Shown: positions 15,111 to 44,063, counted from the stretch's first letter. The stretch: 64,000 nt of DNA from Acidimicrobiaceae bacterium (GCA_003141095.1 PLKM01000010.1:36693-100692); one strand, 5' to 3'. Notes: generated by a model from the letters alone, not told the origin. Numbers and translations are program-made.

Positions 15111-15244
15111 TGCCGAGGTCCAAAGCGATGGTCAGGCGATCCGTGGCACCCGACACAATCCGCTGAGAGCTGCTGGCTTCCACCCCTGACTCGGTTCACG
15201 AACGGTCGTCGCACGGGACCCGACCACCGCTTTGGACCTCGGCA
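15111..15244 (-). ncRNA. ffs: SRP RNA (4.5S-type) with a long closing helix
   Basis: The minus strand carries GAACCGAGTCAGGGGTGGAAGCCAGCAGC, matching the helix-8 TCAGG..GGAA..AGCAGC pattern. It sits in the usual position upstream of dnaX and has complementary ends. Boundaries are approximate. Confidence 0.85.
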
Positions 15245-15331: not shown

Positions 15332-15419
15332 GGAGGAGTGCGAGAGCGGCCGAATCGGCACGATTGGAAATCGTGTGAAGGGAAACCTTCCGTGGGTTCA
15401 AATCCCACCTCCTCCGCCA
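15332..15419 (+). tRNA. tRNA-Ser(GGA)
   Basis: GGAGGAG/CTCCTCC acceptor stem, CACGA-TTGGAAA-TCGTG anticodon arm, long variable arm, GGTTCAAATCC, encoded CCA. Confidence 0.96.
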
Positions 15420-15444
15420 TGGTGAAATTGTCGTGAAGCCAGAA

Positions 15445-15482
15445 GTTAAAGCCTCGTGCCGTAACTGACACGAGGCTTTAAC
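15445..15482 (+). terminator. Hairpin terminator after tRNA-Ser(GGA)
   Basis: Perfect 14-bp stem GTTAAAGCCTCGTG/CACGAGGCTTTAAC with a 10-nt loop. Confidence 0.75.
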
Positions 15483-15608
15483 CTCTCACTTCTACCGTGA
15501 GGCCATGACATCGATTCCCAGACCTGAGCGGTTGACTCACTACCCGGGCCCTGACAACGGTGACCGAGTTCGCTCGTCCTTGATTGGCGGCTTCGAGCGG
15601 CGTCCGGC

Positions 15609-17255
15609 ATGAGTGCACCCGCGACCGTCGAAGAGTTGTTCGCTCTCTACGAAGCGAAAGGGCACCGACGCTACGGCGAACGTGTGTCGGCGCTCGAGCA
15701 CGCCCTGCAGTGCGCGGCCCTCGCTCGCGCGGACGGCGCCACTGACGTGCTGATTGCCGCCGCACTCTTTCACGACGTGGGCTGGCTGGTGGATGGCGGG
15801 TCCGGCGATGAGGATTCCACACCCGCGCTTGATCATGGCCATGCGGCACTCGGCGCTCGCATCCTCTCGCCAATTCTTGGCCCTTCGGTCGCCCAACCTG
15901 TCGCACTGCACGTCACCGCGAAACGCTGGCGATGCACCATTGAGCCGACCTATTACCGCCAGCTTTCGCCCGCGTCCCAGGAGACGTTCAAGGCTCAGGG
16001 CGGGTACTTGAACTCCGACGAGCGCACTCGCTTTGAGTCGCACCCCGGCTTCGAGACCGCCTTGGCGCTGCGTTCGTGGGACGACGCCGGCAAGGCACCA
16101 GGGCTCGATGTCGGCACTTTGCGTGATTACGAGGTCCTCGCGAAAGCGCTGGCAACTGAGACGCCGGGGCCAACCGCGCAACTGCCGTTCCCGCCACTCT
16201 GGCTACGCGACAACTGTCCCTGCCAGAGTTGTCACGATCCGCTGAGCAACCAGAAGCTCTTCCAGGTCACCGATCTGCCCGACGGGCTTTCGGTGGCGGA
16301 CGTCCAAGTGACCGGCGACGAGGTCAGCATGACGTTTCTGCCCGATGGTCACCGCTCGGTGTTCTCGCGCGATTGGCTCTCATCACAGGGGCCGAGCGCG
16401 CGTGACGATGGTCGTACCGAGAAGGACAAGCAACTTTGGCGGGCTCGAGACCTCGAGGAAACCCCCCAGCGTGCCGACTGGTCCTCGTACCGCGACGACG
16501 AACATGAACGCCTTCGCGTTCTTCGCGGGATCGAGCGTGTCGGATTCGCGGTCCTTCGCGCCACGCCGACGGCTGATCGGACAGTGTTGGATATCGCACG
16601 GACCTTCGGGTACGTACGCGAGACAAACTACGGCGAGCTGTTCGATGTACGCGTTGAACCCACTCCGAACAATCTCGCCTTTACCGGAGTCGCAATCTCT
16701 CCCCATACGGACAACCCGTACTGGGATCCGGTGCCGACGATGCAGCTTCTCCACTGCCTGTCGAACGACGTCGACGGTGGTGAGTCGGGTCTCGTTGATG
16801 GCTTTCTGGCGTCCGTGATCCTTCGCGACGAGCACCCGAAATACTTTGACGTTCTCGCCGGCACGCCGGTGACCTTCGCCTGGGCCGACGAGCATAATTC
16901 CCTACGAGCGCGGCGCCCCCTGATCGAACTGGACCCGCTCGGTCGCGTGCGCGGCGTGCGCTTCAACAATCGATCAATGCAAGCATTACAGCTCGACTTC
17001 GACGACACGGTCGAGTACTACGACGCCTACCGATGCTTCGCTCAGATCGTCGCACGACGTGACCTTCTGCTGACCTTTCGCCTCGAGCCGGGCGACTGTC
17101 TGATCTTTGACAACACTCGGCTCCTCCACGCCCGTACGGCGTTCATCGAGTCGAGCACGGGCAAGCGCCATCTGCAGGGCTGCTACACCGATCTGGACGG
17201 GCTGGCGAGCACCATCGCCGTGCTCGAGCGAGCCGGCGGAGTTCGCCATGGCTGA
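15609..17255 (+). CDS. Fusion of a PhnZ/TmpB-like HD diiron oxygenase and a GBBH/TmpA-like Fe(II)/2OG dioxygenase
   Basis: N-terminal ~185 aa: EHALQ, FHD, HVTAKR, QGG, LRSWDD. Then WLRDNCPCQSC (GBBH Zn domain), HTDNPY, DNTRLLHAR and RHLQGCY. Confidence 0.88.
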   Translation: MSAPATVEELFALYEAKGHRRYGERVSALEHALQCAALARADGATDVLIAAALFHDVGWLVDGGSGDEDSTPALDHGHAALGARILSPILGPSVAQPVALHVTAKRWRCTIEPTYYRQLSPASQETFKAQGGYLNSDERTRFESHPGFETALALRSWDDAGKAPGLDVGTLRDYEVLAKALATETPGPTAQLPFPPLWLRDNCPCQSCHDPLSNQKLFQVTDLPDGLSVADVQVTGDEVSMTFLPDGHRSVFSRDWLSSQGPSARDDGRTEKDKQLWRARDLEETPQRADWSSYRDDEHERLRVLRGIERVGFAVLRATPTADRTVLDIARTFGYVRETNYGELFDVRVEPTPNNLAFTGVAISPHTDNPYWDPVPTMQLLHCLSNDVDGGESGLVDGFLASVILRDEHPKYFDVLAGTPVTFAWADEHNSLRARRPLIELDPLGRVRGVRFNNRSMQALQLDFDDTVEYYDAYRCFAQIVARRDLLLTFRLEPGDCLIFDNTRLLHARTAFIESSTGKRHLQGCYTDLDGLASTIAVLERAGGVRHG

Positions 17256-17452
17256 AATGCTTCGAGGGCTCGTCGAAGGTTGGACGAGCCAGGTCACCCG
17301 CTCGGATCATCGGAGGCTTCAATGTCGACGCCCCTGATGCAACCGCCGGGTTTCGTAAGTACCCGTTGCATTAAATTTCCGTGACTTCACCGGCAGAGAC
17401 CTCGTTCCAGTTCCGACACCAGGTTTTCACCTTCCACCCGTACCATGAGGGC

Positions 17453-18211
17453 ATGGTTCCAATCCTCAGCAGCGAGCTGCGCGAGCACTATCGGCATCAC
17501 GGATGGCTGCTGGTCGATGACGCGCTCGAGATCTCGGTGGACGAGTTGCGCGCCGAGGTCGACGAAATCGCGTCATGGGACGAGTCGGGCGAGTGGCTGC
17601 ACCACTTCGAAATGACCGACCGTGGTCGCCAACTCGCTCGAACCGAGAACTTCACGCCGTTCTCCCCCCGCCTGCGCGAACTCCTGGGCGCCGGCACGAT
17701 CAGTCGGATTGCGAGCGAACTGCTCGGCGAAGAGGCGCTGCTCTACAAGGAGAAAATTAACTATAAGTTGGCGGGGGGCGCCGGCTTCTCCCCTCATCAG
17801 GACAAGCCGGCGTACCCGTTCGTGGACGTCGTGCTGAGCGTCATGGTGGCAGTCGACGACGCCACCGTCGAGAACGGGTGCCTCTACGTCGCTTCCGGAT
17901 GGCACCATGATCTCCTCGACCAGGACGAGCGAGGCTGCCTGAGCCCAGCGGTCGTCGAGCACCTGGACTGGCGGCCGGCCCCGTTGCGGGCCGGGCAGAC
18001 CCTGTTCTTTCACGCGCTCACGCCTCACCGCAGCGGACCCAACTCGTCAACTCGTGATCGTCGGGCGCTCTACCCCACGTACAACGGAGTTTCCGAAGGT
18101 GATCTGCGTGATGCGTACTACGCTGCGAAAATCGAGGCGTTCCAACACCCCGACGAGGGCGATCGAGTCCGTTTGTCCCTTATTGGCGATTTTGAAGGGC
18201 GGCCCGCATGA
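17453..18211 (+). CDS. phnY: PhnY-like phytanoyl-CoA dioxygenase family protein (phosphonate C1 hydroxylase)
   Basis: LYKEKINYKLAGGAGFSPHQD and TPHRSGPN..RRALY; overlaps the phnZ start by 4 bp. Start 17453 or 17381. Confidence 0.8.
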   Translation: MVPILSSELREHYRHHGWLLVDDALEISVDELRAEVDEIASWDESGEWLHHFEMTDRGRQLARTENFTPFSPRLRELLGAGTISRIASELLGEEALLYKEKINYKLAGGAGFSPHQDKPAYPFVDVVLSVMVAVDDATVENGCLYVASGWHHDLLDQDERGCLSPAVVEHLDWRPAPLRAGQTLFFHALTPHRSGPNSSTRDRRALYPTYNGVSEGDLRDAYYAAKIEAFQHPDEGDRVRLSLIGDFEGRPA

Positions 18212-18768
18212 ACACTCCGAACACCGTTGAGGATCTCTTCGCCCTCTACGAGTCAAAGGGTGACGAGCACTACGGCGAGTTCATCACCCAGACCGAGCAC
18301 GCCCTACAATGCGCGGCTCTCGCGCGGCGCGACGGCGCCACCGACGCGCTCGTAGTTGCGGCCCTCTTTCACGACGTTGGCCACTTGGTGGCCGACACGC
18401 AAAGCAACGACCGTATCGATCTCGCCGACGAGGACGACGACCATGAGCAGGTCGGCGCTCGAATTCTTTCGCCGATCCTTGGTCCCGCGGTCGCCCAGCC
18501 GGTGGCACTGCACGTCACCGCCAAGCGCTGGCGCTGCACGATCGACCCCACGTACCACGCTCAGTTGTCGCCCACCTCCCAAGCAACGCTGAAGGCCCAG
18601 GGCGGACTGCTGAGCCCCGAGGAGTGCGCCCGCTTCGAGGCTCACCCGGGCTTCGAAAGCGCCTTGGCGCTGCGGTCGTGGGACGACGCGGGAAAGGCCC
18701 CCGGACTCGAGGTCGGCGTACTGCGCGACTACGAGGGCCTGGTCAGGGTGCTGGCCGACGCTCGGTGA
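18208..18768 (+). CDS. phnZ: PhnZ-like HD-domain diiron oxygenase (C-P cleavage)
   Basis: YGE, TQTEHALQ, FHDVGH, DHE, LHVTAKR, QGG, LRSWDD; translationally coupled to phnY. Confidence 0.85.
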   Translation: MNTPNTVEDLFALYESKGDEHYGEFITQTEHALQCAALARRDGATDALVVAALFHDVGHLVADTQSNDRIDLADEDDDHEQVGARILSPILGPAVAQPVALHVTAKRWRCTIDPTYHAQLSPTSQATLKAQGGLLSPEECARFEAHPGFESALALRSWDDAGKAPGLEVGVLRDYEGLVRVLADAR

Positions 18769-19852
18769 CGAGCACGTCGCGCGCGCTAACGAGCACGTCG
18801 ACCCGCTCTCCGATGTCAAAGACTTCGGCGGCGCTACTGCGCACGTCCACCTTCACGGTGACACCACCGACGCCAACCTGCAGTCTCGTCGTCGAGCCGA
18901 AGAAGGACCGGTGGGTGATGACGCCGAGCCCGTTTGGTGCGGCGAGGATCTCGAGGTCCTCGGGACGAAGCAACGCATCGAGAGGTCCGCTCGGCAGCGC
19001 CGAGGTACCTCCTCGGACCTCGACGGTCTGGGCGAACAACTTCACCCGATCCCCGGCCAACTCGACACTCACACGGCTTGAAGCACCCACGAACTCGGCG
19101 ACGAATGCCGTGCTCGGCCGGTCGTAGAGCATCGACGGGCTCGCCACCTGCTCAACGCGTCCCTTAGACATGACGCACACCCGGTCGGCCATCGAGAGCG
19201 CCTCTTCCTGGTCGTGGGTGACGAAGACCGTCGTGATGGCGAGGCGCTGCTGCAGGGCGCGGATCTGATCGCGCAACTCGGCGCGCACCTTCGCGTCGAG
19301 GGCGGACAACGGTTCATCGAGCAGCAGCACACGCGGTTCGATGGCGAGCGCTCGAGCGAGTGCCACACGTTGCTGCTGTCCGCCCGAAAGCTGGTGGGGA
19401 TACTTGCTCAAGTGGTCGCTGAGCCCGACCAGGTCGAGAAGTTCCCCAGCGCGTTGGCGGCGTTGTGAGGAGCGTTGTCCTCTCAGGCGAAGTCCGAACG
19501 CGACGTTATCGCGGGTGGTCATATTGGGGAAAAGGGAGTAGCTCTGAAACACCATTCCCATGTCTCGCTTTTGCGAGGGAGTGTCGCTGAGGTCCTTTCC
19601 ATCGACCAATACACGACCGCTATCCAGGTGCTCGAAGCCCGCCAGCACTCGAAGGGCGGTGGTCTTGCCGCAGCCCGACGGGCCGAGCAGGGCGACGAAC
19701 TCACCCGGCTGGATGTCCAGCGAGAACCCGTCGAGGGCGCGCGTCGTCCCGAACTGGCGCACCAGATGCTCCATGACCACCGGAGCTCCCGACGCGGGCG
19801 GATCAGACGGGTGTGTGGGGACCTCGGCGCGTTGCGTGGCGACTGACATCAT
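18743..19852 (-). CDS. ABC importer ATPase (PotA/PhnT-like, with TOBE domain)
   Basis: GPSGCGKT, LSGGQQQR, LLLDEP. ATG 19852 overlaps the permease stop (ATGA). Confidence 0.92.
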   Translation of the reverse strand: MMSVATQRAEVPTHPSDPPASGAPVVMEHLVRQFGTTRALDGFSLDIQPGEFVALLGPSGCGKTTALRVLAGFEHLDSGRVLVDGKDLSDTPSQKRDMGMVFQSYSLFPNMTTRDNVAFGLRLRGQRSSQRRQRAGELLDLVGLSDHLSKYPHQLSGGQQQRVALARALAIEPRVLLLDEPLSALDAKVRAELRDQIRALQQRLAITTVFVTHDQEEALSMADRVCVMSKGRVEQVASPSMLYDRPSTAFVAEFVGASSRVSVELAGDRVKLFAQTVEVRGGTSALPSGPLDALLRPEDLEILAAPNGLGVITHRSFFGSTTRLQVGVGGVTVKVDVRSSAAEVFDIGERVDVLVSARDVLVTERRPAP

Positions 19853-20700
19853 GACTGCTTCCTCTTCAGGGTTCTTCGGGACTGTGAGCGGTCGAGCGAG
19901 ACTATCAACGTGAGTAGCACCCACGTCGCGATGAGCGACAGCATCGCGACGGCCACCGTCACGTGGCCGTCGTTCTGGGAGGTTGCGACAATCCAGACCG
20001 GTATCGTCTGCCATCCATCGAGGCTCGCCATCGTGTATTCACCGAGCACCAGCGCCAGGGACAGCACCGTTGCGGAGAGCAGCGCGCTGCGCAGATTGGG
20101 AATCACCACGCTCCACAGCGTGCGGAACCAACTCGCTCCGAGCGAGCGGGACGCCTCGACGAGCGTGTGGAGGTCGATGGCGCCGAGACCGGCCGCCAGC
20201 GAGCGGTACACGAAGGGCATCACCAGGATCACGTACACCAGCGAAAGCAGGTAGGGCGACGACTTAAGCCACAACGGTGACGACGGCAGCACGCCCAGGA
20301 TGAGGACGATGGGGGGAATCACGATCGGTAGCAACGTGATCGTCTCAAAGAGCGGCTTCAGCTTCGGCACCTTCAGATGCATGTACACGACCGTGGGCAC
20401 CATGAGTCCCATTGCGACCACCATCGTCACCCCGGCGAGTCGCATCGAAAGCCAGAAGGCCGAACCCAGTCCGGGTTGGCTGGGAATGGACGTGAGCGGC
20501 GAGAAGGAGAAGTGGTTCTGGTCATTTTCCAGCGCGAAGTGCAGCGCCGCGTAGATCGGAGTCAAGAAATAGACGCCCGCTATCAGCAGGACGATCGCGC
20601 GGCCGACGTGGATGCGATGACGCAGACCGTGCCGGGACTCGGGAACAAAGACTTCGGGTACGTCACCCTCGATGATCACCCCGGGCGTCACCGTAACCAT
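19849..20700 (-). CDS. ABC importer permease
   Basis: Multiple TM helices and the EAA loop LVEASRSLGAS. Confidence 0.9.
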   Translation of the reverse strand: MVTVTPGVIIEGDVPEVFVPESRHGLRHRIHVGRAIVLLIAGVYFLTPIYAALHFALENDQNHFSFSPLTSIPSQPGLGSAFWLSMRLAGVTMVVAMGLMVPTVVYMHLKVPKLKPLFETITLLPIVIPPIVLILGVLPSSPLWLKSSPYLLSLVYVILVMPFVYRSLAAGLGAIDLHTLVEASRSLGASWFRTLWSVVIPNLRSALLSATVLSLALVLGEYTMASLDGWQTIPVWIVATSQNDGHVTVAVAMLSLIATWVLLTLIVSLDRSQSRRTLKRKQS

Positions 20701-21626
20701 CGCGAGGCCCTTCGTTGTAGGAAGAAATAGCCGACCATGGAGATGAGCATCATGACGATCATGATGAAGCCGAGCGCGTAGCCAATGTTCGTCTCATTGG
20801 CAAGCACGTTGCCGTTCAGGACCGCGCCGATCTGAATGGGCGTCAGGGCAATCGTGCCACCCGTCAGCGCTTCAGCCGTGGCGTACGCCGAGAGGCCGCT
20901 GCCGAAGAGCAGCAGGGTGCTGCCGAGCACCGACGGCATGAGAACAGGTAGGCCCACGTACCTCCAGTACTTCCAGCTCGAAGCCCCCAGGTTCTGCGCG
21001 GCCTCTCGCCACGACTCCTTGAGTCCGCCAATTGCTGGCGTGATGATGAGCACCATGAGCGGAATCTGGAAGTAAAAATAGACGAGCTCCACGCCCGTGA
21101 TTCGGTACAGGTCGAAGCCGTGATTCCACGGATTCAACCCGAAATGGGACAGGAACGAGGTGGCGAGGCCGGTGTAACCAACGGTGGCGATAAAGATGAA
21201 TGCCAAGTTGACTCCGCCGAAATTGGCGAAGACGCCCGACGCGGTCGCCACCAGCCGACGCAATAACGCGAATTTGGACGTGGCCACGACGTACGCGAGC
21301 AAAGTGCCGAAGATCGCCGGCACTATGGCCGTTACCGCCGCCAACTTGAGGCTGGACTCAAAACCCAAAAGATACTGACCGCCACTCGTGATGGCCTTGA
21401 TGTTCTGCAAGGAAAGGTGACCTTGATTGTTTCGAAAGGCCAGATTCACGATCACGATCGTGGGGACACCGAGACCGACCAGGACGTACGCGAAGAAGGG
21501 AACGAGGGGCAGCGACGTGCGCAGCGACCGCCACGCCCTGCGTGAGGAACGGGCTGCGCCCTCCCCACCGACGCCAGAGGGGGAACTGCTGGCGTCGGTG
21601 GGGAGGGTGTGGGGTTGGGTGGTCAC
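20688..21626 (-). CDS. ABC importer permease
   Basis: Multiple TM helices and the EAA loop WREAAQNLGAS. Confidence 0.9.
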   Translation of the reverse strand: MTTQPHTLPTDASSSPSGVGGEGAARSSRRAWRSLRTSLPLVPFFAYVLVGLGVPTIVIVNLAFRNNQGHLSLQNIKAITSGGQYLLGFESSLKLAAVTAIVPAIFGTLLAYVVATSKFALLRRLVATASGVFANFGGVNLAFIFIATVGYTGLATSFLSHFGLNPWNHGFDLYRITGVELVYFYFQIPLMVLIITPAIGGLKESWREAAQNLGASSWKYWRYVGLPVLMPSVLGSTLLLFGSGLSAYATAEALTGGTIALTPIQIGAVLNGNVLANETNIGYALGFIMIVMMLISMVGYFFLQRRASRWLR

Positions 21627-21655
21627 ACGCAGCTCGTCATTCTTGCTAGACGCGC

Positions 21656-22780
21656 TCAGCCAACGGCCGAGGCCCAGTTGGCGTCGACGTAGTTCTCAGC
21701 GGTGGTGAGTTGCGCCAACGTCGGGTACTGGATGGTGCCGGCGGGAGCCGGTGGCAACTTCGCGTACGCCGCCGCGTTGACGGTGCCGTTCTTCACGAGA
21801 GTCGCCAACTCGGCTGGTCGAGTCGAGCCTTCGAGCCACAAGTTCTGTCCCTCGGTCGAGTAGAGGAACTCTTCCCAGAGACGAGCCGCCGCCGGGTCCG
21901 CCGCGTACTTGCTGATGGCTTGGGAGTAGTAGGCCGCGTAGCTGGCGTCAGAGGGGATCGCTATCTTCCACGTGGGAATGACTGACGCGAGCTCACTCGC
22001 CTGCAGGTAGTCCCACCAGACGATGATCGGCGTCGCACCGGACTCGGCGGTCGAAGGACCACTGGCGCCCGGGACGAAGTTACCTTCGGCGTTGAGCTTC
22101 TGGAAGAACGTAACCCCTGGTGCAATGTTACCGAGCGAGCCACCGTTCGCGAGTGCGGCTGCGTAAACAGCCGAGAACGCCGCCGAGGCTTGGGTGGGGT
22201 CGTTGTTGATGCCGACCTCGTTCTTGTACTCGGGCTTGAGCAAGTCGGCGAACGAGGTGGGGCACGTCGTGACAACCTTGGAGTTGCAACCAATGGCGAC
22301 GTAGCCGCCGTAATCGTCAAACCAGTAGCCCTTGGCGTTCTTCAGGCCGGTAGGAATCGCACTCCACGTAGCCACCTTGTAGGGGGCCAACAGGTTCGTG
22401 TTGTCCACCGCGAAGCTCGTACCGACGTCGAGCACGTCCGGTGCGTCCGCACGGCCCTTGTCCTGCTCGACTGCCGTGATCTCGTTCGCGCTCGAGCCTT
22501 CAGGATTCTCGGAGTTGATCTTGATGCCGTACTTCTTCGAGAAGTCCTTGATAATGGTGCCGTAGTTCGCCCAGTTCGAAGGAAGGGTAATCACATTGAG
22601 GTGACCCTCTTTCTTGGCCGCCTTGATCAGTGCACTCATGCCGCCGCACGCCGCGGCCGACGTCGCGGTGTTGCAGCTGGACGTTGCTGCCGACGCTGAA
22701 CTACCCGCGAGCGAGATGCTCACGAGCGTGGTGCTCAGCAAACCAGCGGCCACTGACACTTTCAGTTTGTTTACCAACAC
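21656..22780 (-). CDS. ABC substrate-binding protein (PotD/AfuA-like fold; substrate inferred to be an aminophosphonate)
   Basis: Signal peptide, LPSNWANYG, PDVLDVG, DDYGGYVAIG, WWDY; in an operon with the phosphonatase-like gene. Confidence 0.8.
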   Translation of the reverse strand: MLVNKLKVSVAAGLLSTTLVSISLAGSSASAATSSCNTATSAAACGGMSALIKAAKKEGHLNVITLPSNWANYGTIIKDFSKKYGIKINSENPEGSSANEITAVEQDKGRADAPDVLDVGTSFAVDNTNLLAPYKVATWSAIPTGLKNAKGYWFDDYGGYVAIGCNSKVVTTCPTSFADLLKPEYKNEVGINNDPTQASAAFSAVYAAALANGGSLGNIAPGVTFFQKLNAEGNFVPGASGPSTAESGATPIIVWWDYLQASELASVIPTWKIAIPSDASYAAYYSQAISKYAADPAAARLWEEFLYSTEGQNLWLEGSTRPAELATLVKNGTVNAAAYAKLPPAPAGTIQYPTLAQLTTAENYVDANWASAVG

Positions 22781-22911
22781 GTGTACTGCCTCCTAAAAGT
22801 GAACACACCACGTTGGTGGTTCGACCGAGACAGTACGAGTGGCGGGTAAGCGCCCCGTGACGCCACCACGCAAACTGTGTGACAATTCAATGGATTTTCG
22901 GCGCACAATGT

Positions 22912-23592
22912 TCACACTGAGGAATCCTCGGGTTCCTCCAACACCGCCAGCAACTCCGCGACCGAGTCCAAGACCTCGTCCGCGCCATTCGCACGAAGAC
23001 GCTCCTCGTCGTCGTTGCCCGACAACACCCCCACGAGCAGTCCCGCACCAGCCCGCTCGCCCGCCTGCATGTCCGACGCGGTATCTCCCACCACCACTAA
23101 TGAATCCATAGAATGAACCGCCAGTCGAAGCGCGCACCAAAGCAACATGTCCGGAGCCGGCCGCCCGCGACCGGCGTCAGCGGGAGAGACCCGCAAGTCA
23201 AAGAGGTCGGACCAACCAAGTTCTTCGATGAGCACTTCGCGCGTCAACGGTGAAAAGCCGGTCGTCAGGGCAACTTTGAGGCCCTGGGATCGCAGTTCCT
23301 CGACGACGGCTCGCGCACCAGGAATCCCTCGAACACCAAAGTCTCGGGCCGTATCGACGAAATGAAGTTCAAACGACTCATTGGCCGCGCTCGCCCGATC
23401 GCCAAAGAGAGCGGTGAAGACCTCTATCTTCGACTGGCCCATCGTTTCGACCACGTACGCTTCCGCGTCGACGGCTTCCTGTCCCGAAACGCCCAGTTCG
23501 TCAATGGTGCGCCGAAAGCTTTCGAGCACGAGGCCGCTATCGATCATCGTCGTACCGGCCATGTCGAAACAGACCAACTCGAATTTGTTCAC
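22912..23592 (-). CDS. PhnX-like HAD hydrolase (TIGR03351-type phosphonatase-like)
   Basis: FDMAGTT, TMGQSK (retains a Lys), ALTTGF, GRPAPDM, VGDTASD. Confidence 0.82.
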   Translation of the reverse strand: MNKFELVCFDMAGTTMIDSGLVLESFRRTIDELGVSGQEAVDAEAYVVETMGQSKIEVFTALFGDRASAANESFELHFVDTARDFGVRGIPGARAVVEELRSQGLKVALTTGFSPLTREVLIEELGWSDLFDLRVSPADAGRGRPAPDMLLWCALRLAVHSMDSLVVVGDTASDMQAGERAGAGLLVGVLSGNDDEERLRANGADEVLDSVAELLAVLEEPEDSSV

Positions 23593-24722
23593 TGGAAACT
23601 CTCCTCTGCTATCGCTGGCGCCAAGGTCATCCCTCTTCCGCCAGCTCCGGTAACTGCAACGACCCCCCTCGCGACTTCCTTACGGAAATAGACCTCGTCG
23701 CCCAGGGGACTGGTGAGTTGGTGATAGGTGCCGCTCCAGCGACGCTCGACGCGAGGCATCCGGCTTCCAATCAGGGCCCGGGCCGCCTCCATGATGATCT
23801 CCATCGGCCGGTCGGACGTCGAAAACAGGCCGGGCTCGTCGGGTTCGTGGGTGTCGCCAATGGTGAGTCCGCCGTGCAGCCGTTGCTGGCAAAGCAACTG
23901 GATGGCGTAGGTCGCGGCCTCGGGGTTTTGCGGCACCAGCCCGCTCGAAAACTCGTGGAAACCTGGGTAGTAGCGAAGGGAGTCACCGTTGGCGAGCGAT
24001 GTCGTCAGCACGCGTCCGAGCGGCTCGGTCTCCGCCATCTGCAAACGGACTGTCCGCAACGGCTCGCTCTCGAAGAGTTCCGCCGCGAAGCCGCTGAGGC
24101 TCGCCCCAAGACAGAGATAGACACGGTCACCTCGATGATGCACACCCTGGTGATCGGTGACCTCGTAGTCGCCTATCCCCACGAGCTCACGCGCCGGCAG
24201 ATAGTCGTAGCGGCCGGTCGACTGCATGGCGGCGCGCAGCACTGCGAGGGCCTTGCGCGATTCAACCGCAGCGTCACGCTTGCAGAAGAGCCCGCCCAGG
24301 AATTCACCGGCCAGGGCCGGATTCTTTCGCCGGACCTCATCGGCACTCAAGATCTCGAAGCCGCGTTCGTCGGCGTCGCCTCGTTGCATCACGCGCTCGA
24401 GGACCGCCAACTCGTCGAACCTGTTTACGAGCGTGAGCGAGCCGTTCTCGCGAAAACCGATTCCCGGATTCTTGTGAGCGATGCAGCCCCACAGTTCACG
24501 AGCTCGCAGGGCGAGCTCGAGCTCACGCCCCGGCGCCCGCCCACTGACCCAGACGAGGCCGAAGTTTCGAACGCTCGCGCCCTGGGGGGCAAGGTCGCGC
24601 TCCAGGTGAACAACCTGCGCGCCGCGCCGCAGCGCTAGATACGAGTGCACCGTGCCGAAGATTCCGCCGCCAACGACAACGACCCGCTGGCCCGCCAATG
24701 AACTGTCACGCTGTTCGCACAT
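23589..24722 (-). CDS. FAD-dependent oxidoreductase, TIGR03364-type (phosphonate-associated)
   Basis: VVVVGGGIFG, GASVRNFGLVWVSG, IGDTHE, GAGGRGMTL; 4-bp overlap with the HAD gene. Confidence 0.82.
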   Translation of the reverse strand: MCEQRDSSLAGQRVVVVGGGIFGTVHSYLALRRGAQVVHLERDLAPQGASVRNFGLVWVSGRAPGRELELALRARELWGCIAHKNPGIGFRENGSLTLVNRFDELAVLERVMQRGDADERGFEILSADEVRRKNPALAGEFLGGLFCKRDAAVESRKALAVLRAAMQSTGRYDYLPARELVGIGDYEVTDHQGVHHRGDRVYLCLGASLSGFAAELFESEPLRTVRLQMAETEPLGRVLTTSLANGDSLRYYPGFHEFSSGLVPQNPEAATYAIQLLCQQRLHGGLTIGDTHEPDEPGLFSTSDRPMEIIMEAARALIGSRMPRVERRWSGTYHQLTSPLGDEVYFRKEVARGVVAVTGAGGRGMTLAPAIAEESFQ

Positions 24723-24827
24723 AACTCGCGAACATAGAACCGACAACTTTCACGACGGTGACGACTGCGTGTCAATCCCTCGAACTGTCGAAACCGTTAT
24801 GGCGGTCCTGCGGGTCGCTCAACGTGC

Positions 24828-25289
24828 TCACGGTCGACGCACCGCAAAGAACTCGCGCAGCAACGCTTGGGACTCTTCTCGCAAGACGTCGTACGCGAGG
24901 TCCGCTTCGTGGAGCAATCGCGGATCAGAAAGGACGTTGTACCGCGAACCAACTGCGCCGGCCTTCTCGTCCATCGCACCAATGACCACGCGAGCGACGC
25001 GGGCGTTCAAGAGCGCCCCCGCGCACATCACGCACGGCTCCAACGTCACGTACGCGGTCACGTCATCCATGCGCCAGCCATCACGACGAGTCGCCGCGTC
25101 ACGCAACGCAATGATTTCGGCGTGCGCGGTGGGGTCCTGATCGACCTCTCGTCGATTCTCGCCGACGCCAATCACTTCTCCGTCAACAACGAGGACGCAG
25201 CCCACGGGGACGTCGTCGTGCAGCGACGCCGCACGCGCCGCGGCGAGGGCCCCCGTCATGAATTCAGTGTCGCGCGAATCGATCGCCAT
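24828..25289 (-). CDS. tadA: tRNA adenosine(34) deaminase
   Basis: DVPVGCV, DPTAHAEI, TLEPCVMC, FFAVRR. Confidence 0.93.
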   Translation of the reverse strand: MAIDSRDTEFMTGALAAARAASLHDDVPVGCVLVVDGEVIGVGENRREVDQDPTAHAEIIALRDAATRRDGWRMDDVTAYVTLEPCVMCAGALLNARVARVVIGAMDEKAGAVGSRYNVLSDPRLLHEADLAYDVLREESQALLREFFAVRRP

Positions 25290-25412
25290 ATGGTTGGTTC
25301 CTTCTTTATCGTGCTCAAGGAGGTAGTACGACGAGCCATCGTTGAAAAGTACACCGTTGCCGAGGGCCCACGGCCAAAAAGCGCTCTACGGGTGCGTTGT
25401 AGACTTCAAGAC

Positions 25413-25500
25413 GGAGGGGTGCGAGAGCGGCCGAATCGGGCAGTCTCGAAAACTGCTGTGTCTACGGGCACCGTGGGTTCAAATCCCACCTCCTCCGCCA
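25413..25500 (+). tRNA. tRNA-Ser(CGA)
   Basis: GCAGT-CTCGAAA-ACTGC anticodon arm, variable arm, GGTTCAAATCC, encoded CCA. Confidence 0.96.
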
Positions 25501-40226: not shown

Positions 40227-40303
40227 TGGTGCGGCTGGAGGGATTCGAACCCCCGACCCTCGGTTCCGAAGACCGATGCTCTAATCCGCTGAGCTACAGC
40301 CGC
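40227..40303 (-). tRNA. tRNA-Arg(TCG): identical to the tRNA-Arg(ACG) at 45989-46065 except at position 34
   Basis: 77 nt with encoded CCA; anticodon arm TCGGT-CTTCGGA-ACCGA; all stems pair. Confidence 0.88.
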
Positions 40304-40594
40304 AGTTGCAAAACTTGTTTAGTCCTTGACGCCAGTTCGTTCACGCCAAAGCCTGCAAGGAAATGGTAGTACCAATGCGGCGACGCTGGGATTACGTGGG
40401 CTAGCCCTCACCCCTATCCTTTGGTGCAACGAAAGCTGGGGCCGCAACGACCCGAGCCACGAGCGCCCAGGGTTCGTGAGGCATCAACCGACTTCGTCTC
40501 CGAATCTGGACAATGCTTCGTTCCGGCAGTCCAAACCCCGCGAACGGCCGACGCGCCGGTAGTCTCTTGCTATCTCGACGGAGGAGGATTCTCG

Positions 40595-41074
40595 ATGGCA
40601 GAGTTGATTGGCGCGAGCACGTGGGAAGAGGAACTGTACGCGCACCTCACGTCACACGAAGTCACCGAGGGTGAAATACTGATCGAATACCGCGACGTCG
40701 CCGCGACGTCGCCGTCGAGCGCCTTTCGCTATCTAAGCGCCCTCATCCTTGAAGACGAGATCCGCCACCATCGGGTGTTCAGGGATCTGGCGTCAGCTCT
40801 GAAGAACGACGTGGAACTCGATCCCGAGGCACCCGCCGTACCCCACATCGGCAACTGGGGAGACGACGCGGCTACGGTCGTGCGCCTCACTGAGACCCTC
40901 CTCGAACGCGAGCGTGCCGACGCCAAGGAACTTCGCCATCTGGCTTCCGAGCTGAAGAGCCTCAAGCAGGAAACCCTGTGGCAGTTGTTGATCAAGTTGA
41001 TGGAGATGGACACGGCCAAACACATCGAAATTCTGAGGTTCGTGAAACGCAGCGCAACGAAATCGATGACGTAG
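40595..41074 (+). CDS. Ferritin-like/rubrerythrin-fold protein
   Basis: GGAGGAGG RBS; EDEIRHH and MDTAKH ExxH/DxxxH helices. Confidence 0.7.
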   Translation: MAELIGASTWEEELYAHLTSHEVTEGEILIEYRDVAATSPSSAFRYLSALILEDEIRHHRVFRDLASALKNDVELDPEAPAVPHIGNWGDDAATVVRLTETLLERERADAKELRHLASELKSLKQETLWQLLIKLMEMDTAKHIEILRFVKRSATKSMT

Positions 41075-41126
41075 GGTCCTTCGCGCAAGGTTGACGTTCC
41101 TAGTTGCCCTCACTGCATCTGGTGAA

Positions 41127-41203
41127 TGGTGCGGTTGGAGGGATTCGAACCACCGACCCTCGGTCCCGTAGACCGATGCACTAGCCCGCTGAGCTACAGC
41201 CAC
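41127..41203 (-). pseudogene. Degenerate full-length tRNA-Arg(ACG) copy
   Basis: Seven substitutions relative to 45989-46065, producing mismatches in the acceptor, D and T stems. Confidence 0.8.
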
Positions 41204-41542
41204 ACTCGGAGCAACATCGCGATGTTTAGCCTCAAATTCTTGAACCGCAGAACCTGAGACGAAGTTGTAGTGCCGCGACGCCAGCGCGCGAGACGTCGAT
41301 CGGTACGACGCCGGCGAGCGACCAGACGGCGACGCAGCGACGCTTTAGCCCGCGTCAGCATCGGACTCGTCGATGCCTGGATTCCTCTGATTGAAATCGT
41401 TCGGTTGCCCAAAGTAGTCTCGCCGCGTCCTCAGCGCTGGGGCCATTTCCGCACACTTCCTCGTTGACGCGGCGCCAGCGAGTCAATGTCGCCCCTCGGT
41501 GCATAGAGAAGTAATGTCGGCCCAGTGGAGAGTCTCGTAACG

Positions 41543-41695
41543 GTGAAGGCCAACAATGACTTTTACGACGACGTCCACTACCGACGACAGGGCCGTCCCG
41601 AGAGCACCTTGTGCGGGATGAAGACCGCTAGCTCACCGGCCTCGGGCGAGGCCACGTGCCTTCGTTGTCGCCAATTTGCCGCCGGGAACCTCTAG
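41543..41695 (+). CDS. 50-aa putative zinc-finger microprotein (below the ORF-track cutoff)
   Basis: GGAGAG RBS; reads VKANNDFYDDVHYRRQGRPESTLCGMKTASSPASGEATCLRCRQFAAGNL, with an H..LCG..CxxC pattern. Confidence 0.5.
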   Translation: MKANNDFYDDVHYRRQGRPESTLCGMKTASSPASGEATCLRCRQFAAGNL

Positions 41696-41879
41696 GTGAG
41701 ATCAGCCGTCGGCTCCATCAACGAATGAGATTGAGCGCATTACCGGGCTCGACGGCGGTTCGACCGCCGTGTGAAGGACAAGCGGCTCAAATCAGAAGGT
41801 ACCGGGCCCTCGTAGAACAGGACCAAACACTGCACGCTCTCCTGATTGCACATCGTCAACTTTTCTCGGACGGGCTTCG

Positions 41880-42977
41880 GTGAACCTCCCACGTGAGAAA
41901 TCGCCACGATACGCCTGGCTCGACCTTTTGCGCGCCATGGCGGTGCTCGTCGTCATGTGGGATCACTTCGTAGGGGAATACCTTGGCAACACAGGCCAGA
42001 CCTGGCTACCGGACCGAGTAGTGAACGCGGCTATCTTCCAGCCGCTCCACATCACGCAGTTCGGCGGATTCTTCGGGGTCTGTCTCTTCTTCCTGATCAG
42101 TGGCTACATCATCACCCGCGTCTCAACGAACGAAACTGCTTCGAAGTTCGCAATTCGCCGGGTACTTCGAATCTTCCCACCTTTGGCCGCGGCGGTGGCC
42201 CTCGTCATAGTGGGCGGCAAGATGGGGCTCTCGCTCTACGCTGTGGCCGCCGGCGCCACGTGGAAAGAGGCGCTCACCAACGTCACGCTGGTGAACTATT
42301 TCATGACTCCCCAGGTGATATTTGTGGGTGTGGGGTGGACGCTCGTGATCGAGGTCATCTTCTACAGTGAGTCGCTACTTCTTAATCCGCTCATCCATCG
42401 TCGACGGCTCATCCGATATTTCCCGCTTTGCGTGACCGCACTGAGTCTGTTCTTCATCCTGAGCTCACGTGACTGGACGAGTGGCTACTTCTTGTTCACC
42501 GTGTCCTCTATATACGTGCCAATCTTGGCGATTGGAAGTTCATTCTTTCTCCTCGAGAAGCGGATCATCAATCCGTGGATGTTCCTAGGGCTTCTCGCGG
42601 TCGGCTGCGGTGTCTTTCTCTACGGAACTCACAACTTCTATCCCCAGTTCATGAGCACCGCCAACTCCTACCCGATCTCGGCATTTCTTGCGATTGTGAT
42701 GTTCGCGGGCGCATGGCTCCTCCGCGGCGTGATCCCCACCTTCCGAGTCGTGAGGGCCGTAGCCCTCACGAGCTACTCCATTTACCTGTTCCACGGCGTC
42801 GTGGGTTTGCAGCTCATCGAGTACTTTGACCGTTCATTGGGCTACACGCTGTCGCTCGCAATTGGACTACTGGCCACTGCGGTAGCGGTAGGGGCCAGCT
42901 ATTTCATGATCGAACGTCCGAGCCAAAGGCTCGCGCGTCGGCTTACGACTCGAGAAAAGGCCCTCGAGGCGGCGTAG
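41880..42977 (+). CDS. Acyltransferase-3 (OafA-like) membrane O-acyltransferase
   Basis: LDLLRAMAVLVVMWDH, FFLISGYII, RRVLRIFP, WTLVIEVIFY, SYSIYLFH. Confidence 0.9.
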   Translation: MNLPREKSPRYAWLDLLRAMAVLVVMWDHFVGEYLGNTGQTWLPDRVVNAAIFQPLHITQFGGFFGVCLFFLISGYIITRVSTNETASKFAIRRVLRIFPPLAAAVALVIVGGKMGLSLYAVAAGATWKEALTNVTLVNYFMTPQVIFVGVGWTLVIEVIFYSESLLLNPLIHRRRLIRYFPLCVTALSLFFILSSRDWTSGYFLFTVSSIYVPILAIGSSFFLLEKRIINPWMFLGLLAVGCGVFLYGTHNFYPQFMSTANSYPISAFLAIVMFAGAWLLRGVIPTFRVVRAVALTSYSIYLFHGVVGLQLIEYFDRSLGYTLSLAIGLLATAVAVGASYFMIERPSQRLARRLTTREKALEAA

Positions 42978-43110
42978 AGACTCCGGACTTGACGCCACCA
43001 GCCCAAAGGCGGAGTGGCACTTTTAGGTGTCGAACAGGCGCTCGTGGCGTTGGCGAGCATCCGTCCGTCGAAAAGCACTGCCGATGCAGACCCAAACGAC
43101 TACCTGGACA

Positions 43111-43124
43111 TGCTTCTCTTGGTG
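43111..43124. repeat. Left target-site duplication (14 bp)
   Basis: TGCTTCTCTTGGTG, 13/14 identical to 45980-45993. Confidence 0.85.
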
Positions 43125-43156
43125 GGGATAGGTGACAAGGACAGCCGAAACGTCCG
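43125..43156 (+). repeat. Left terminal inverted repeat
   Basis: GGGATAGGTGACAAGGACAGCCGAAACGTCCG; 27/32 match to the reverse complement of 45948-45979. Confidence 0.85.
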
Positions 43157-43463
43157 GTAGTCACCCCTGTTTTCGAATACCCGCGCTTGTTCAAGTGATG
43201 GCGTTCCTGCATCTCAACACGTGGTGCGCAAGATCCCAGCCTCAACCCCCGAGCAAATCGGCGCCTTCCTTAGTTGTTCACAATCAATACCGTTACGTGC
43301 AACCCGCCATATGCTCCAATACCCGAGTCTGATGCAACCGGCGACACAGGAAATCACCCCGAAATTGTTACCCGCCCTTAATTGCCTTCACGCGGAGTCC
43401 TTAGAGGGCGCGGCAAGTATGGGTCATGCGTGGAGATGTTCTCCGCGCGAAGGAGGGACCACC

Positions 43464-43745: not shown

Positions 43746-44063
43746 CACTCGACCTGAACCGTACGTAAGTCCAGGGTCATCAATTGCGTGGTGACCGAGG
43801 TGGACGACAATCTTCGGATTCTACGCGGCTCGTGCATTGGTCGGAAGGGCGAGCGTCGTTTGGGGCCAGCACGATTCGGCGTCTTCGTCTTGGACTGCTT
43901 TGAGTCTGAAATGCAATCGTTCGTCGAGGCCCGAGTCGCTACTTTAATCTGGTTGTGCTCTTCCGCTCATCGACGTCCTTGTAGATTGTCAGGGTGTGGT
44001 CGAGGTCGTTGACCGACGACTCGACCGTGTATGCCATCGTGGCAAAGTTGATTACGTTCGCCT

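What the first reader, a model, noticed from the sequence alone, without database searches (positions are those of the whole stretch)
15609..24722. Three-route phosphonate catabolism cluster in convergent arms
Seen: the plus arm holds an HD-TauD fusion, PhnY and PhnZ; the minus arm holds a TIGR03364-type FAD enzyme, a PhnX-like HAD and an ABC importer; the arms overlap by 26 bp at their 3' ends. Known: PhnY/PhnZ and TmpA/TmpB are oxidative C-P cleavage pairs (for 2-aminoethylphosphonate and its N-trimethyl form), and PhnX hydrolyses phosphonoacetaldehyde. Inference: one importer feeds parallel routes covering AEP across N-methylation states, with the FAD enzyme replacing the absent PhnW. No regulator is encoded in the cluster.
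Basis: partly seen in the sequence, partly recalled or inferred. Interest (0 to 1): 0.7.

Follow-up and report, generated by a model that had tools for sequence, protein, structure and literature searches.

The report
Phosphate-starvation island for degrading aminophosphonates
An uncultured peat actinobacterium carries a 9.3-kb accessory gene island that joins three known ways of breaking the carbon-phosphorus bond of aminoethylphosphonates with one importer. All four of its operons carry the same promoter motif as the phosphate transporter gene pstS, so the parts are known but the assembly and one fused enzyme are unusual.

Summary
Window 15609-24746 holds, on the plus strand, an HD-TmpA fusion, a PhnY-like dioxygenase and a PhnZ-like HD oxygenase. 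On the minus strand it holds a TIGR03364/PbfD-type flavoenzyme, a PhnX-like HAD hydrolase and a four-gene ABC importer. The two arms overlap by 26 bp.

Published specificities of PbfD, PhnY/PhnZ and TmpA/TmpB make coverage of AEP across N-methylation states coherent. No enzyme or binding-protein specificity is shown here.

PhnW is missing only from the cluster. A bona fide orphan phnW lies on another contig.

New findings:
- The cluster fills a hypervariable gap between tRNA-Ser(GGA) and tadA/tRNA-Ser(CGA). That gap is empty or differently filled in 40 congeners. The importer-PhnX-like-PbfD-PhnZ core recurs there; the fusion does not.
- A strict direct-repeat-plus-TANNNT promoter motif occurs five times in the 2.5-Mb genome: once at pstS and once before each of the four cluster operons. 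It recurs before phosphonate genes in related MAGs (22 observed, 0.9 expected). This explains why the cluster has no regulator of its own.
- The fusion has the reverse domain order to the common Streptomyces-type fusions. Its HD domain belongs to a clade where the family's fifth conserved His is Trp.

Verdict: a new variant of known kinds, of moderate interest.

The parts
15332..15419 (+). tRNA-Ser(GGA), left boundary of the variable interval. The SRP RNA at 15127-15225 (-) and dnaX/recR lie further left.
   Evidence: Homology to 40 congeners stops at the tRNA 3' end.
15467..15498 (+). Promoter P1 before the fusion gene: phased repeat units GACAC / TTAAC, 4 nt, then TACCGT. It overlaps the right arm of a 24-nt hairpin (15435-15492).
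   Evidence: The only genome hit to the strict motif that was not used to define it. The same motif lies before the fusion genes in L004 and L005. Hairpin: (I2).
15609..17255 (+). HD(Trp-type)-TmpA fusion, 548 aa. An N-terminal di-iron HD domain is joined to a C-terminal Zn-knuckle plus 2-oxoglutarate/Fe(II) trimethyl-AEP hydroxylase domain.
17415..17446 (+). Promoter P2 before the phnY-like gene: units GACAC / TTCAC, 4 nt, then TACCAT. It lies 6 nt before ATG 17453, so the mRNA is probably leaderless.
   Evidence: The equivalent site lies before phnY in G007.
17453..18211 (+). PhnY*-like PhyH-family 2-oxoglutarate dioxygenase (ORF from 17381). HxD...H triad at H139, D141 and H216.
18208..18768 (+). 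PhnZ-like HD di-iron oxygenase (His-type, HDVGH). Its start overlaps the phnY-like stop by 4 bp.
18743..18768 (.). 26-bp overlap of the convergent 3' ends of the phnZ-like and ATPase genes. No terminator was predicted here.
18743..19852 (-). ABC transporter ATPase (ORF extends to 20014). Its best model is PhnT2 at 393 bits, below the cut-off of 458.
19849..21626 (-). Two ABC permease genes (19849-20700 and 20688-21626).
21656..22780 (-). Secreted substrate-binding protein of family SBP_bac_6 (PF13343), the family that also holds PhnS and AepX.
   Evidence: Family statement from PMC8316502.
22830..22861 (-). Promoter P3 before the importer genes: phased units (four in all, reaching about 22883), 4 nt, then TACTGT. 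A roughly 49-nt leader with AGGAGG follows.
   Evidence: Conserved in six genomes..
22912..23592 (-). PhnX-like HAD hydrolase (TIGR03351). It carries DMAGT, the cap lysine K55 in MGQSK, GRGRPAPDM and GDTASDM.
23589..24722 (-). PbfD-type (TIGR03364) FAD amine oxidase (ORF extends to 24746).
24731..24773 (-). Promoter P4 before pbfD: three phased units GACAC / GTCAC / GAAAG, 4 nt, then TATGTT. It lies 8 nt before ATG 24722, so the mRNA is probably leaderless.
   Evidence: Conserved in six genomes..
24828..25500 (.). Right boundary: tadA (24828-25289, -) and tRNA-Ser(CGA) (25413-25500, +).

Best explanation
This is an accessory phosphorus-scavenging island, probably switched on by phosphate starvation, in an uncultured Acidimicrobiaceae bacterium. 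It consists of four transcription units. Each starts with the same promoter architecture as pstS: 11-nt-phased GWCAC / TTAC repeat units, 4 nt, then TANNNT.

Inferred mechanism:
1. The SBP_bac_6-type ABC importer takes up 2-aminoethylphosphonate-type compounds.
2. PbfD oxidatively deaminates N-methyl-AEP and AEP to phosphonoacetaldehyde. The PhnX-like HAD enzyme hydrolyses that to acetaldehyde and phosphate. An unlinked PhnW can also feed this step from AEP.
3. The PhnY-like dioxygenase hydroxylates C1 of AEP, and the His-type PhnZ-like oxygenase cleaves the product to glycine and phosphate. The same PhnZ-like enzyme can also take imported 1-hydroxy-AEP. That would explain why it sits beside the importer in congeners that have no hydroxylase.
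4. The TmpA domain hydroxylates trimethyl-AEP, and the fused Trp-type HD domain cleaves the product to glycine betaine and phosphate.

Shown here: gene content, catalytic motifs, conservation of the core module, the variable-locus context and the shared promoter motif. Inferred: every substrate assignment, the identity of the regulator (a PhoP-type response regulator), and that one importer serves all branches.
For: -
- The TmpA domain passes its equivalog cut-off (419.5 against 400) and matches L. caerulea TmpA (6NPB) at 282.7 bits over residues 191-541, about half of the aligned positions identical by eye.
- The TmpA domain keeps the Fe triad H366/D368/H507. It also keeps the phosphonate-binding N355 and N454-R455, which correspond to TmpA N187 and N287-R288. 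Human BBOX has Ala where TmpA has that Arg (alignments; PMC9296572).
- PbfD specificity and the PbfD-PhnX route without PhnW are published (PMC10590968).
- The module PhnZ -> <- ATPase-permease-permease-SBP-HAD-FAD beside tadA recurs in G051, G006, G056, G020 and G007. The convergent overlap is conserved.
- The strict promoter motif gives five hits in the genome against 1.75 in shuffles: pstSCA plus the four cluster operons. One of the four was not used to define the pattern.
- A slightly loosened form gives 22 hits against 0.9 +/- 0.8 expected in 520 kb of loci from other MAGs. Nearly all lie directly before HD, TmpA, PhnY, SBP or FAD genes.
- No C-P lyase gene phnJ and no PEP mutase were found in the assembly. 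The island would therefore be the organism's phosphonate catabolism, not biosynthesis.
Against: - No biochemical or expression data exist.
- The PhnY-like, PhnZ-like, PhnX-like, ATPase and SBP proteins all score below the curated cut-offs of their nearest equivalog models.
- The fused HD domain has Trp in place of PhnZ H62, the residue reported to bind the substrate's 1-hydroxyl. Its activity is therefore uncertain.
- The fusion occurs in other MAGs without this importer.
- An SBP of this class has not been shown to bind a quaternary ammonium phosphonate.
- The promoter pattern was written after seeing four of the five genomic sites. The bare two-unit repeat is at chance frequency genome-wide: 12 observed against about 11.5 expected from base composition (count; expectation is my own calculation).
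- The regulator was not identified.
Confidence: 0.6

Rival explanations
1. The PhnY-like/PhnZ-like pair is a methylphosphonate or hydroxymethylphosphonate system of the Gimesia maris / Prochlorococcus type, not an AEP system. The island would then cover methylphosphonate plus N-methylated AEPs.
For: The best curated model for the dioxygenase is the G. maris methylphosphonate hydroxylase (NF052437, 237.9 bits). For the HD protein, after the general TIGR03276 model, it is the hydroxymethylphosphonate dioxygenase (NF052439, 171.5 bits against 143 for TmpB).
Against: - Both scores are far below the cut-offs (500 and 300).
- The HD protein keeps the Tyr...Gly-Glu loop whose Glu recognises the substrate amine in PhnZ and TmpB (PMC8177086).
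- Its neighbours are all AEP-type, and there is no PhnD-type binding protein.
- JGI names three of the 120 listed homologues (60-71% identity to the query) 2-aminoethylphosphonate dioxygenase.
Confidence: 0.2
2. The Trp-type HD domain of the fusion is not a competent C-P oxygenase and serves a structural, chaperoning or altered-chemistry role. The single His-type PhnZ-like enzyme cleaves the hydroxylated products of both PhnY-like and TmpA. That gives two hydroxylases feeding one cleaving enzyme.
For: - W59 replaces the family's fifth conserved His (PhnZ H62) in all fused and stand-alone members of the clade.
- The residue after the third His ligand is Ala in 11 of the 13 aligned Trp-type HD sequences, where His-type PhnZ-like proteins, PhnZ and TmpB have Glu (one congener has Asp).
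- A His-type paralogue, 70% identical, lies 1 kb downstream.
Against: - All six metal ligands and the AKR / QGG / WDD motifs are invariant across the diverged Trp-type clade, which argues for a working active site.
- In L004-L006 the fusion has no His-type HD within 10 kb.
- Stand-alone Trp-type HD genes carry the same phosphate-type promoter.
Confidence: 0.2
3. The FAD enzyme and PhnX-like hydrolase act on 1-hydroxy-2-aminoethylphosphonate, via hydroxyphosphonoacetaldehyde to glycolaldehyde, as the TIGRFAMs authors first proposed. They would not act on AEP or N-methyl-AEP.
For: The hydrolase matches TIGR03351 (PhnX-like, 205 bits), not true PhnX TIGR01422 (84 bits). The original family description raised this possibility (quoted in PMC10590968).
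Against: TIGR03364-family PbfD enzymes were shown to oxidise N-methyl-AEP and AEP to phosphonoacetaldehyde (PMC10590968). The PhnZ-like enzyme conserved beside them already provides a route for 1-hydroxy-AEP.
Confidence: 0.1
4. The island serves nitrogen or carbon acquisition and is induced by substrate independently of phosphate, like AepXVW in marine bacteria. The shared motif would then be a general promoter feature and not a phosphate-starvation box.
For: Phosphate-insensitive AEP catabolism is widespread (PMC8316502). The regulator was not identified here.
Against: The only other genomic copy of the strict motif is at pstSCA. No LysR-type substrate sensor lies in or beside the island.
Confidence: 0.1

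Closest known systems
TmpA/TmpB of Leisingera caerulea (trimethyl-AEP to glycine betaine plus phosphate; PDB 6NPA-6NPD)
   Same: The TmpA domain matches at 282.7 bits (about half of the aligned positions identical by eye), passes the NCBIfam equivalog cut-off, and keeps the Fe triad and the N...N-R phosphonate-binding residues. The HD partner keeps the six metal ligands and the Tyr...Glu loop.
   Different: - The two enzymes are fused, with HD first.
- The HD domain has Trp in place of the fifth conserved His and a Tyr-Glu loop one residue shorter.
- The TmpA part keeps the BBOX-like CxCxxC zinc motif that L. caerulea TmpA lacks.
TmpA-HD fusions of Streptomyces, Kitasatospora and Herbidospora (annotated by NCBI, uncharacterised) and the fungal PhnY-PhnZ fusion PhoF
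   Same: A hydroxylase and a C-P-cleaving HD oxygenase lie in one polypeptide.
   Different: The actinomycete fusions have the opposite order (TmpA N-terminal, HD C-terminal). They have canonical HDxGH and YLGE motifs, and their HD domains are a distant outgroup in the tree. The Acidimicrobiaceae fusion is therefore an independent event. PhoF joins a PhnY-type hydroxylase, not a TmpA-type one.
PbfD2-PhnX pathway of Mariniblastus fucicola (Zangelmi et al. 2023, PMC10590968)
   Same: A TIGR03364-type FAD oxidase sits next to a phosphonoacetaldehyde-hydrolase-type HAD enzyme with no phnW in the cluster.
   Different: Here the hydrolase is the TIGR03351 PhnX-like branch. The pair is joined to an importer and two oxidative modules, and the genome holds an unlinked phnW.
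Achromobacter phosphonatase clusters with HpnW (TIGR03364), PhnX and a PhnHD oxygenase (PMC11203657)
   Same: The same trio is present: a FAD oxidase, a phosphonatase and a TIGR03276-type HD oxygenase without a partner hydroxylase. This matches the core module of the congeners.
   Different: Those clusters carry a LysR regulator and true PhnX. They have no TmpA or PhnY-like hydroxylase.
PhnY*/PhnZ (HF130 metagenome clone) and G. maris PhnY*/PhnZ1
   Same: A PhyH-type 2-oxoglutarate dioxygenase is followed by an overlapping HD di-iron oxygenase gene. The fifth His and the Tyr...Glu loop are present.
   Different: The pair scores below every curated cut-off. The loop is one residue shorter, and the substrate is not assigned.
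Actinobacterial PHO boxes (PhoP of Streptomyces, PhoR of Corynebacterium; from my own knowledge)
   Same: Direct repeats with an 11-nt period and a (G)TTCAC-like core overlap the -35 region, and they occur before pstS.
   Different: The core here is GWCAC / TTAC, at a fixed distance of 4 nt from TANNNT. It has not, to my knowledge, been described for Acidimicrobiia, and the binding protein is not identified.

Membership tests
TmpA (2-trimethylaminoethylphosphonate dioxygenase, NF049936) | Score above the curated equivalog cut-off | tested here: met
   419.5 bits against a cut-off of 400, residues 189-541. The gamma-butyrobetaine dioxygenase model scores 352.6, below its cut-off of 414.75.
TmpA (2-trimethylaminoethylphosphonate dioxygenase, NF049936) | HxD...H iron triad, a 2-oxoglutarate Arg, and phosphonate-binding Asn plus Asn-Arg (TmpA N187, N287, R288) | tested here: met
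   H366, D368, H507, R520, N355 and N454-R455, read from the alignment to 6NPB. Residue roles are from PMC9296572.
TmpA (2-trimethylaminoethylphosphonate dioxygenase, NF049936) | Hydroxylates trimethyl-AEP at C1 | not testable with these tools
   This needs an enzyme assay.
PhnZ/TmpB-type HD di-iron oxygenases (TIGR03276) | H...HD...H...H...D metal ligands | tested here: met
   Both HD domains and all 27 aligned relatives keep the ligands.
PhnZ/TmpB-type HD di-iron oxygenases (TIGR03276) | Fifth conserved His (PhnZ H62), which binds the substrate's 1-hydroxyl | tested here: not met
   This verdict is for the fused domain, where the position is W59 (HDVGW) in the window and in every member of its clade. 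The stand-alone PhnZ-like protein does meet the feature (H59, HDVGH).
PhnZ/TmpB-type HD di-iron oxygenases (TIGR03276) | Score above the curated cut-off (214.6 bits) | tested here: not met
   The stand-alone protein scores 202.2 and the fused domain 178.2. Both are close below the cut-off. The TmpB and PhnZ1 equivalog models are far below theirs.
PhnZ/TmpB-type HD di-iron oxygenases (TIGR03276) | Tyr-x-x-Glu induced-fit loop | tested here: inconclusive
   Tyr and Glu are present in both domains, but the loop is one residue shorter (Y-G-E against YIGE or YLGE).
PhnY* (AEP or methylphosphonate hydroxylase, PhyH family) | PhyH fold with an HxD...H triad, encoded directly before a PhnZ-type gene | tested here: met
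   PF05721 at 87.5 bits; H139, D141, H216; 4-bp overlap with the phnZ-like gene.
PhnY* (AEP or methylphosphonate hydroxylase, PhyH family) | Equivalog-level match that fixes the substrate | tested here: not met
   The only curated model hit is NF052437 (methylphosphonate hydroxylase), at 237.9 bits against a cut-off of 500.
PbfD (TIGR03364 FAD amine oxidase) | Score above the curated cut-off and adjacency to a phosphonatase-type HAD gene | tested here: met
   288.1 bits against 285.1, with a 4-bp overlap with the HAD gene. The pairing is conserved in six congeners.
PhnX (phosphonoacetaldehyde hydrolase, TIGR01422) / PhnX-like (TIGR03351) | DxAGT nucleophile motif, Schiff-base Lys in the cap, Arg in GRPxP, and GDTxSDM | tested here: met
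   D10 in DMAGT, K55 in MGQSK, GRGRPAPDM and GDTASDM. Equating K55 with B. cereus K53 rests on motif likeness and my own recall, because the cap region did not align.
PhnX (phosphonoacetaldehyde hydrolase, TIGR01422) / PhnX-like (TIGR03351) | Score above the curated cut-off | tested here: not met
   TIGR03351 scores 205 against 218.9. TIGR01422 scores 84.1 against 220.
PhnSTUV / AepXVW aminoethylphosphonate ABC importers | Binding protein of the PF13343 family beside AEP catabolic genes | tested here: met
   SBP_bac_6 at 80.1 bits. The linkage is conserved in five congeners.
PhnSTUV / AepXVW aminoethylphosphonate ABC importers | Equivalog-level match to PhnS/PhnT, or a demonstrated ligand | tested here: not met
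   PhnS scores 51.7 bits against 395, and PhnT2 392.8 against 457.7. The best solved structure is 5T1P, whose ligand is unknown to me. No AepX sequence was available for comparison.
Pho regulon promoter (PHO box) | Phased direct repeats shared with pstS and conserved before orthologous genes | tested here: met
Pho regulon promoter (PHO box) | Bound by PhoP and induced by phosphate limitation | not testable with these tools

The most novel reading that the evidence does not exclude
The Trp-type HD proteins (HDVGW, with His-Glu changed to His-Ala after the third ligand) are a functionally distinct clade of C-P-cleaving di-iron oxygenases, widespread in Acidimicrobiia and probably controlled by phosphate starvation. 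On this reading the clade arose in partnership with TmpA. The indole replaces the hydroxyl-binding His to accommodate a quaternary ammonium substrate. The stand-alone members next to a PEMT-type methyltransferase and a membrane hydroxylase would act on an N-methylated phosphonate head group not yet described. The island in this window would then be the first locus in which this enzyme type, a classical PhnY/PhnZ pair and the PbfD-PhnX route are placed under one phosphate-starvation signal.
Probability: 0.3. Interest if true: 0.6.

Novelty: new variant of a known kind. Interest (0 to 1): 0.5.

Why it matters
Aminophosphonates are a significant organic phosphorus pool. How uncultured soil and peat Actinomycetota use them is poorly known, because most work is on marine Proteobacteria.

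This locus suggests that one small-genome peat bacterium stacks the three published AEP-family cleavage chemistries behind one signal. That would let it use AEP whatever its N-methylation state.

The comparison across 40 congeners shows how such capacity is assembled piece by piece in a tRNA-flanked variable site. It gives a testable promoter motif for finding the phosphate-starvation regulon in a class with no genetic system.

The reverse-order fusion with a conserved His-to-Trp change is a concrete target for enzymology of HD-domain oxygenases.

Tried and rejected
- **Recent local duplication of phnZ.** The two HD domains are 77-78% identical in DNA. I rejected duplication because the fused domain groups with other Trp-type HD proteins (support 100/98), as a sister clade to the island's His-type proteins.
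- **Conservation of the whole cluster.** It is not conserved. No other fusion was found in the 24 same-genus genomes searched with the fusion protein or at this locus in the 19 congener intervals examined, and L004-L006 have the fusion without the other genes.
- **Integrase or att repeats at the island ends.** None were found. The only long flanking repeats are the shared ends of the two tRNA-Ser genes (D8 and D10).
- **The bare two-unit repeat as a genomic signal.** It is at chance level: 12 observed against about 11.5 that I calculated from base composition. Only the full geometry with TANNNT is specific. Looser patterns hit unrelated genes such as a nucleobase permease and a TetR regulator, which I treat as chance.
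- **phoU next to the window.** It is not beside a two-component system, so the regulator was not located.
- **Sigma-70-type promoter and terminator scans.** They gave nothing useful in the island.
- **Solved structures for the SBP and the FAD enzyme.** They gave no ligand information.
- **The primary TmpA/TmpB paper.** It is not held.
- **Structure prediction.** I did not run it, because the tool returns no coordinates with which to measure the position of W59.

Full report
**What is there**

The region holds nine genes in two convergent arms.

Plus arm:
- 15609-17255 encodes a 548-aa protein. Residues 6-178 match the phosphonate-type HD oxygenase family (TIGR03276, 178 bits). Residues 189-541 match the TmpA equivalog model above its cut-off (NF049936, 419.5 against 400) and match L. 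caerulea TmpA at 282.7 bits, with about half of the aligned positions identical by eye.
- A PhyH-family dioxygenase follows (ORF 17381-18211). Gene callers start it at 17453.
- A 186-aa HD protein (18208-18768) comes next, overlapping the previous gene by 4 bp.

Minus arm, read from its start:
- A TIGR03364 FAD oxidoreductase (23589-24746; 288.1 bits against 285.1).
- A TIGR03351 PhnX-like HAD hydrolase (22912-23592), overlapping the FAD gene by 4 bp.
- An SBP_bac_6 binding protein (21656-22780).
- Two permeases.
- An ATPase ending at 18743.

The ATPase and HD genes overlap tail to tail by 26 bp.

**Catalytic equipment**

- TmpA domain: it keeps the iron triad (H366, D368, H507) and R520. It also keeps the phosphonate-binding Asn and Asn-Arg (N355, N454-R455). 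These correspond to TmpA N187 and N287-R288, where human BBOX has Ala in place of the Arg (residue roles from PMC9296572).
- HAD enzyme: it has the phosphonatase signatures DMAGT, a cap lysine in MGQSK, GRGRPAPDM and GDTASDM.
- PhnY-like protein: it has an HxD...H triad.
- Both HD domains: they keep the six ligands of the di-iron site and the Tyr...Gly-Glu loop, which is one residue shorter than in PhnZ and TmpB.

**The fusion is unusual**

Hydroxylase-HD fusions are common in Streptomyces, Kitasatospora and relatives. NCBI already names them TmpA or phosphonate HD oxygenase. Those have TmpA first and HD last, with canonical HDxGH and YLGE motifs: 91 of the 98 listed hits longer than 480 aa (YLGE seen in the five examined).

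The window's protein and five other cluster representatives, all apparently Acidimicrobiaceae-type by their 70-75% identity, have HD first. They read HDVGW.

By the alignment to PDB 4MLM, the Trp (W59) replaces PhnZ H62. H62 is the family's "fifth histidine". I recall it was reported to bind the substrate's 1-hydroxyl (van Staalduinen et al. 2014), and it is cited as a family hallmark in PMC11203657.

A tree of 27 HD domains puts all Trp-type sequences, fused and stand-alone, in one clade (support 100/98). That clade is sister to the His-type PhnZ-like proteins of this genus. The Streptomyces C-terminal HD domains are a distant outgroup.

So the fusion is an independent event, and the 77-78% DNA identity between the two HD regions of the window reflects sister clades, not a recent duplication. 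All Trp-type members keep every metal ligand. This argues for a working but altered active site.

**Genomic setting**

Relatives fetched by the fusion are Acidimicrobiaceae MAGs from palsa and fen samples. The assembly is 2.5 Mb in 84 contigs and 93% complete.

The cluster exactly fills the space between tRNA-Ser(GGA) at 15332-15419 and tadA at 24828-25289. The SRP RNA, dnaX and recR precede the first tRNA. tRNA-Ser(CGA) and an aminotransferase follow tadA.

These flanks are present in all 40 congeners searched, and homology stops at the 3' end of the first tRNA. The space between the flanks ranges from about 0.6 to 33 kb.

| Content of the interval | Genomes |
|---|---|
| No phosphonate genes | G049, G055, G005, G010, G008 |
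| PhnZ -> <- ATPase-permease-permease-SBP-HAD-FAD beside tadA | G051, G006, G056, G020 (frameshifted), G007 |
| The same module plus PhnY-like | G007 |
| Fragments of the module | G043, G047, G024 |
| Module plus PhnY-like plus HD-TmpA fusion | the window's genome only |

The tail-to-tail overlap is conserved at 26 or 47 bp. The island is therefore a modular accessory trait, and the window shows its fullest version.

**PhnW**

G000:C37:5021-6322 is a clear PhnW (NF010006, 542.6 bits against 296) in an unrelated neighbourhood.

In the genus only this genome and G007 have it, while 13 of 41 have the PhnX-like gene. In most congeners the FAD enzyme must therefore supply the aldehyde on its own. 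This matches the published PbfD2-PhnX route (PMC10590968). In this genome PhnW and PbfD can both feed the hydrolase.

No phnJ and no PEP mutase were found.

**Regulation**

There is no regulator gene. Aligning the regions before the FAD gene and before the SBP gene from six genomes exposed conserved repeat units with an 11-nt period. They are followed after 4 nt by a conserved TANNNT and, for the FAD gene, by a conserved start codon 8-9 nt later. The same geometry lies about 115 nt before pstS, which heads a pstSCA operon.

The pattern was written as G[TA]CAC, 6 nt, a TTAC-like core, 10 nt, then TANNNT. It occurs five times in the 2.5-Mb assembly, against 1.75 in shuffles:
- pstS;
- window 24731-24762 (before pbfD);
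- window 22830-22861 (before the SBP gene);
- window 17415-17446 (before the phnY-like gene);
- window 15467-15498 (before the fusion gene). This last site had not been used to write the pattern.

A form loosened at one position gives 22 hits in 520 kb of loci from other genomes, against 0.9 +/- 0.8 expected. Nearly all sit just before HD, TmpA, PhnY-like, SBP or FAD genes.

The core resembles the (G)TTCAC units of actinobacterial PHO boxes (from my own knowledge). I therefore read the island as four phosphate-starvation operons.

**How it most likely works**

The importer brings in AEP-type compounds. Three branches then release phosphate:
- PbfD and the PhnX-like hydrolase take N-methyl-AEP and AEP, with PhnW helping for AEP.
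- PhnY-like and PhnZ-like take AEP. PhnZ-like probably also takes free 1-hydroxy-AEP, which would explain its presence without any hydroxylase in several congeners.
- The fusion takes trimethyl-AEP.

Weak points:
- The PhnY/PhnZ-like pair is not assigned to a substrate by any curated model.
- The Trp-type HD domain lacks a residue thought important for catalysis.
- The binding protein's ligand range is unknown.

**Verdict**

Every part belongs to a known family. New are the assembly in one variable locus, the common promoter, and the reverse-order Trp-type fusion. I class it as a new variant of a known kind, with interest 0.5.

Noticed in passing
L008-L016 (for example L011:7602-10573): Stand-alone Trp-type HD genes (about 200 aa, HDVGW) sit in a conserved neighbourhood in many Acidimicrobiia MAGs: typA, an ECF sigma and anti-sigma pair, a FA_hydroxylase-family protein, a PEMT-type methyltransferase, then the HD gene, with a convergent MFS_3 transporter and a GH1 glucosidase. 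Each HD gene has the phosphate-type promoter motif directly before it. No partner hydroxylase of the TmpA or PhnY type is nearby.
   Followed up: partly
G000:C37:5021-6322 (L061): Orphan phnW lies between an ECF sigma gene, unknown ORFs, a MarR gene and an MFS efflux gene. Weak in-phase repeat units (GTCAC / GTCGC / CTCTT, 4 nt, TAGCAT) lie before a likely start at about 6151. The match fails the strict motif.
   Followed up: partly
L040:7791-8321, L046:2893-3423, L049:5591-6481: In congeners that have PhnZ-like but no hydroxylase, the gene directly before phnZ is an ORF with no Pfam match in G006 (176 aa) and G056 (296 aa). G047 has a 176-aa ORF of the same size in the same position, which I did not scan. 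In G051 it is a 3-hydroxyisobutyrate-dehydrogenase-like gene (L036:3910-4791).
   Followed up: partly
window 24828-25289 and L051, L054, L055: tadA has opposite orientation in different congeners. It is co-directional with the FAD gene wherever the island is present, and inverted in G049, G055 and G008, which lack phosphonate genes at this locus.
   Followed up: no
window 15435-15492: A 24-nt inverted repeat (88% complementary, 10-nt loop) lies right after tRNA-Ser(GGA). Its right arm contains the repeat units of promoter P1. It could be a tRNA terminator, an operator or a remnant of an integration site.
   Followed up: no
L039 (G020:C1:1322000-1339500): In the single-contig genome G020, the ATPase, HAD and FAD genes of the module are split into several frames. 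This could be pseudogenisation or long-read indel errors.
   Followed up: no
window 15609-17255, residues 199-210: The TmpA domain keeps the BBOX-type CxCxxC zinc motif (as do the Streptomyces-type fusions). The crystallised L. caerulea TmpA has no cysteines at these positions.
   Followed up: no
window 40227-46065: Three tRNA-Arg genes (TCG, ACG, ACG) lie on the minus strand within 6 kb.
   Followed up: no
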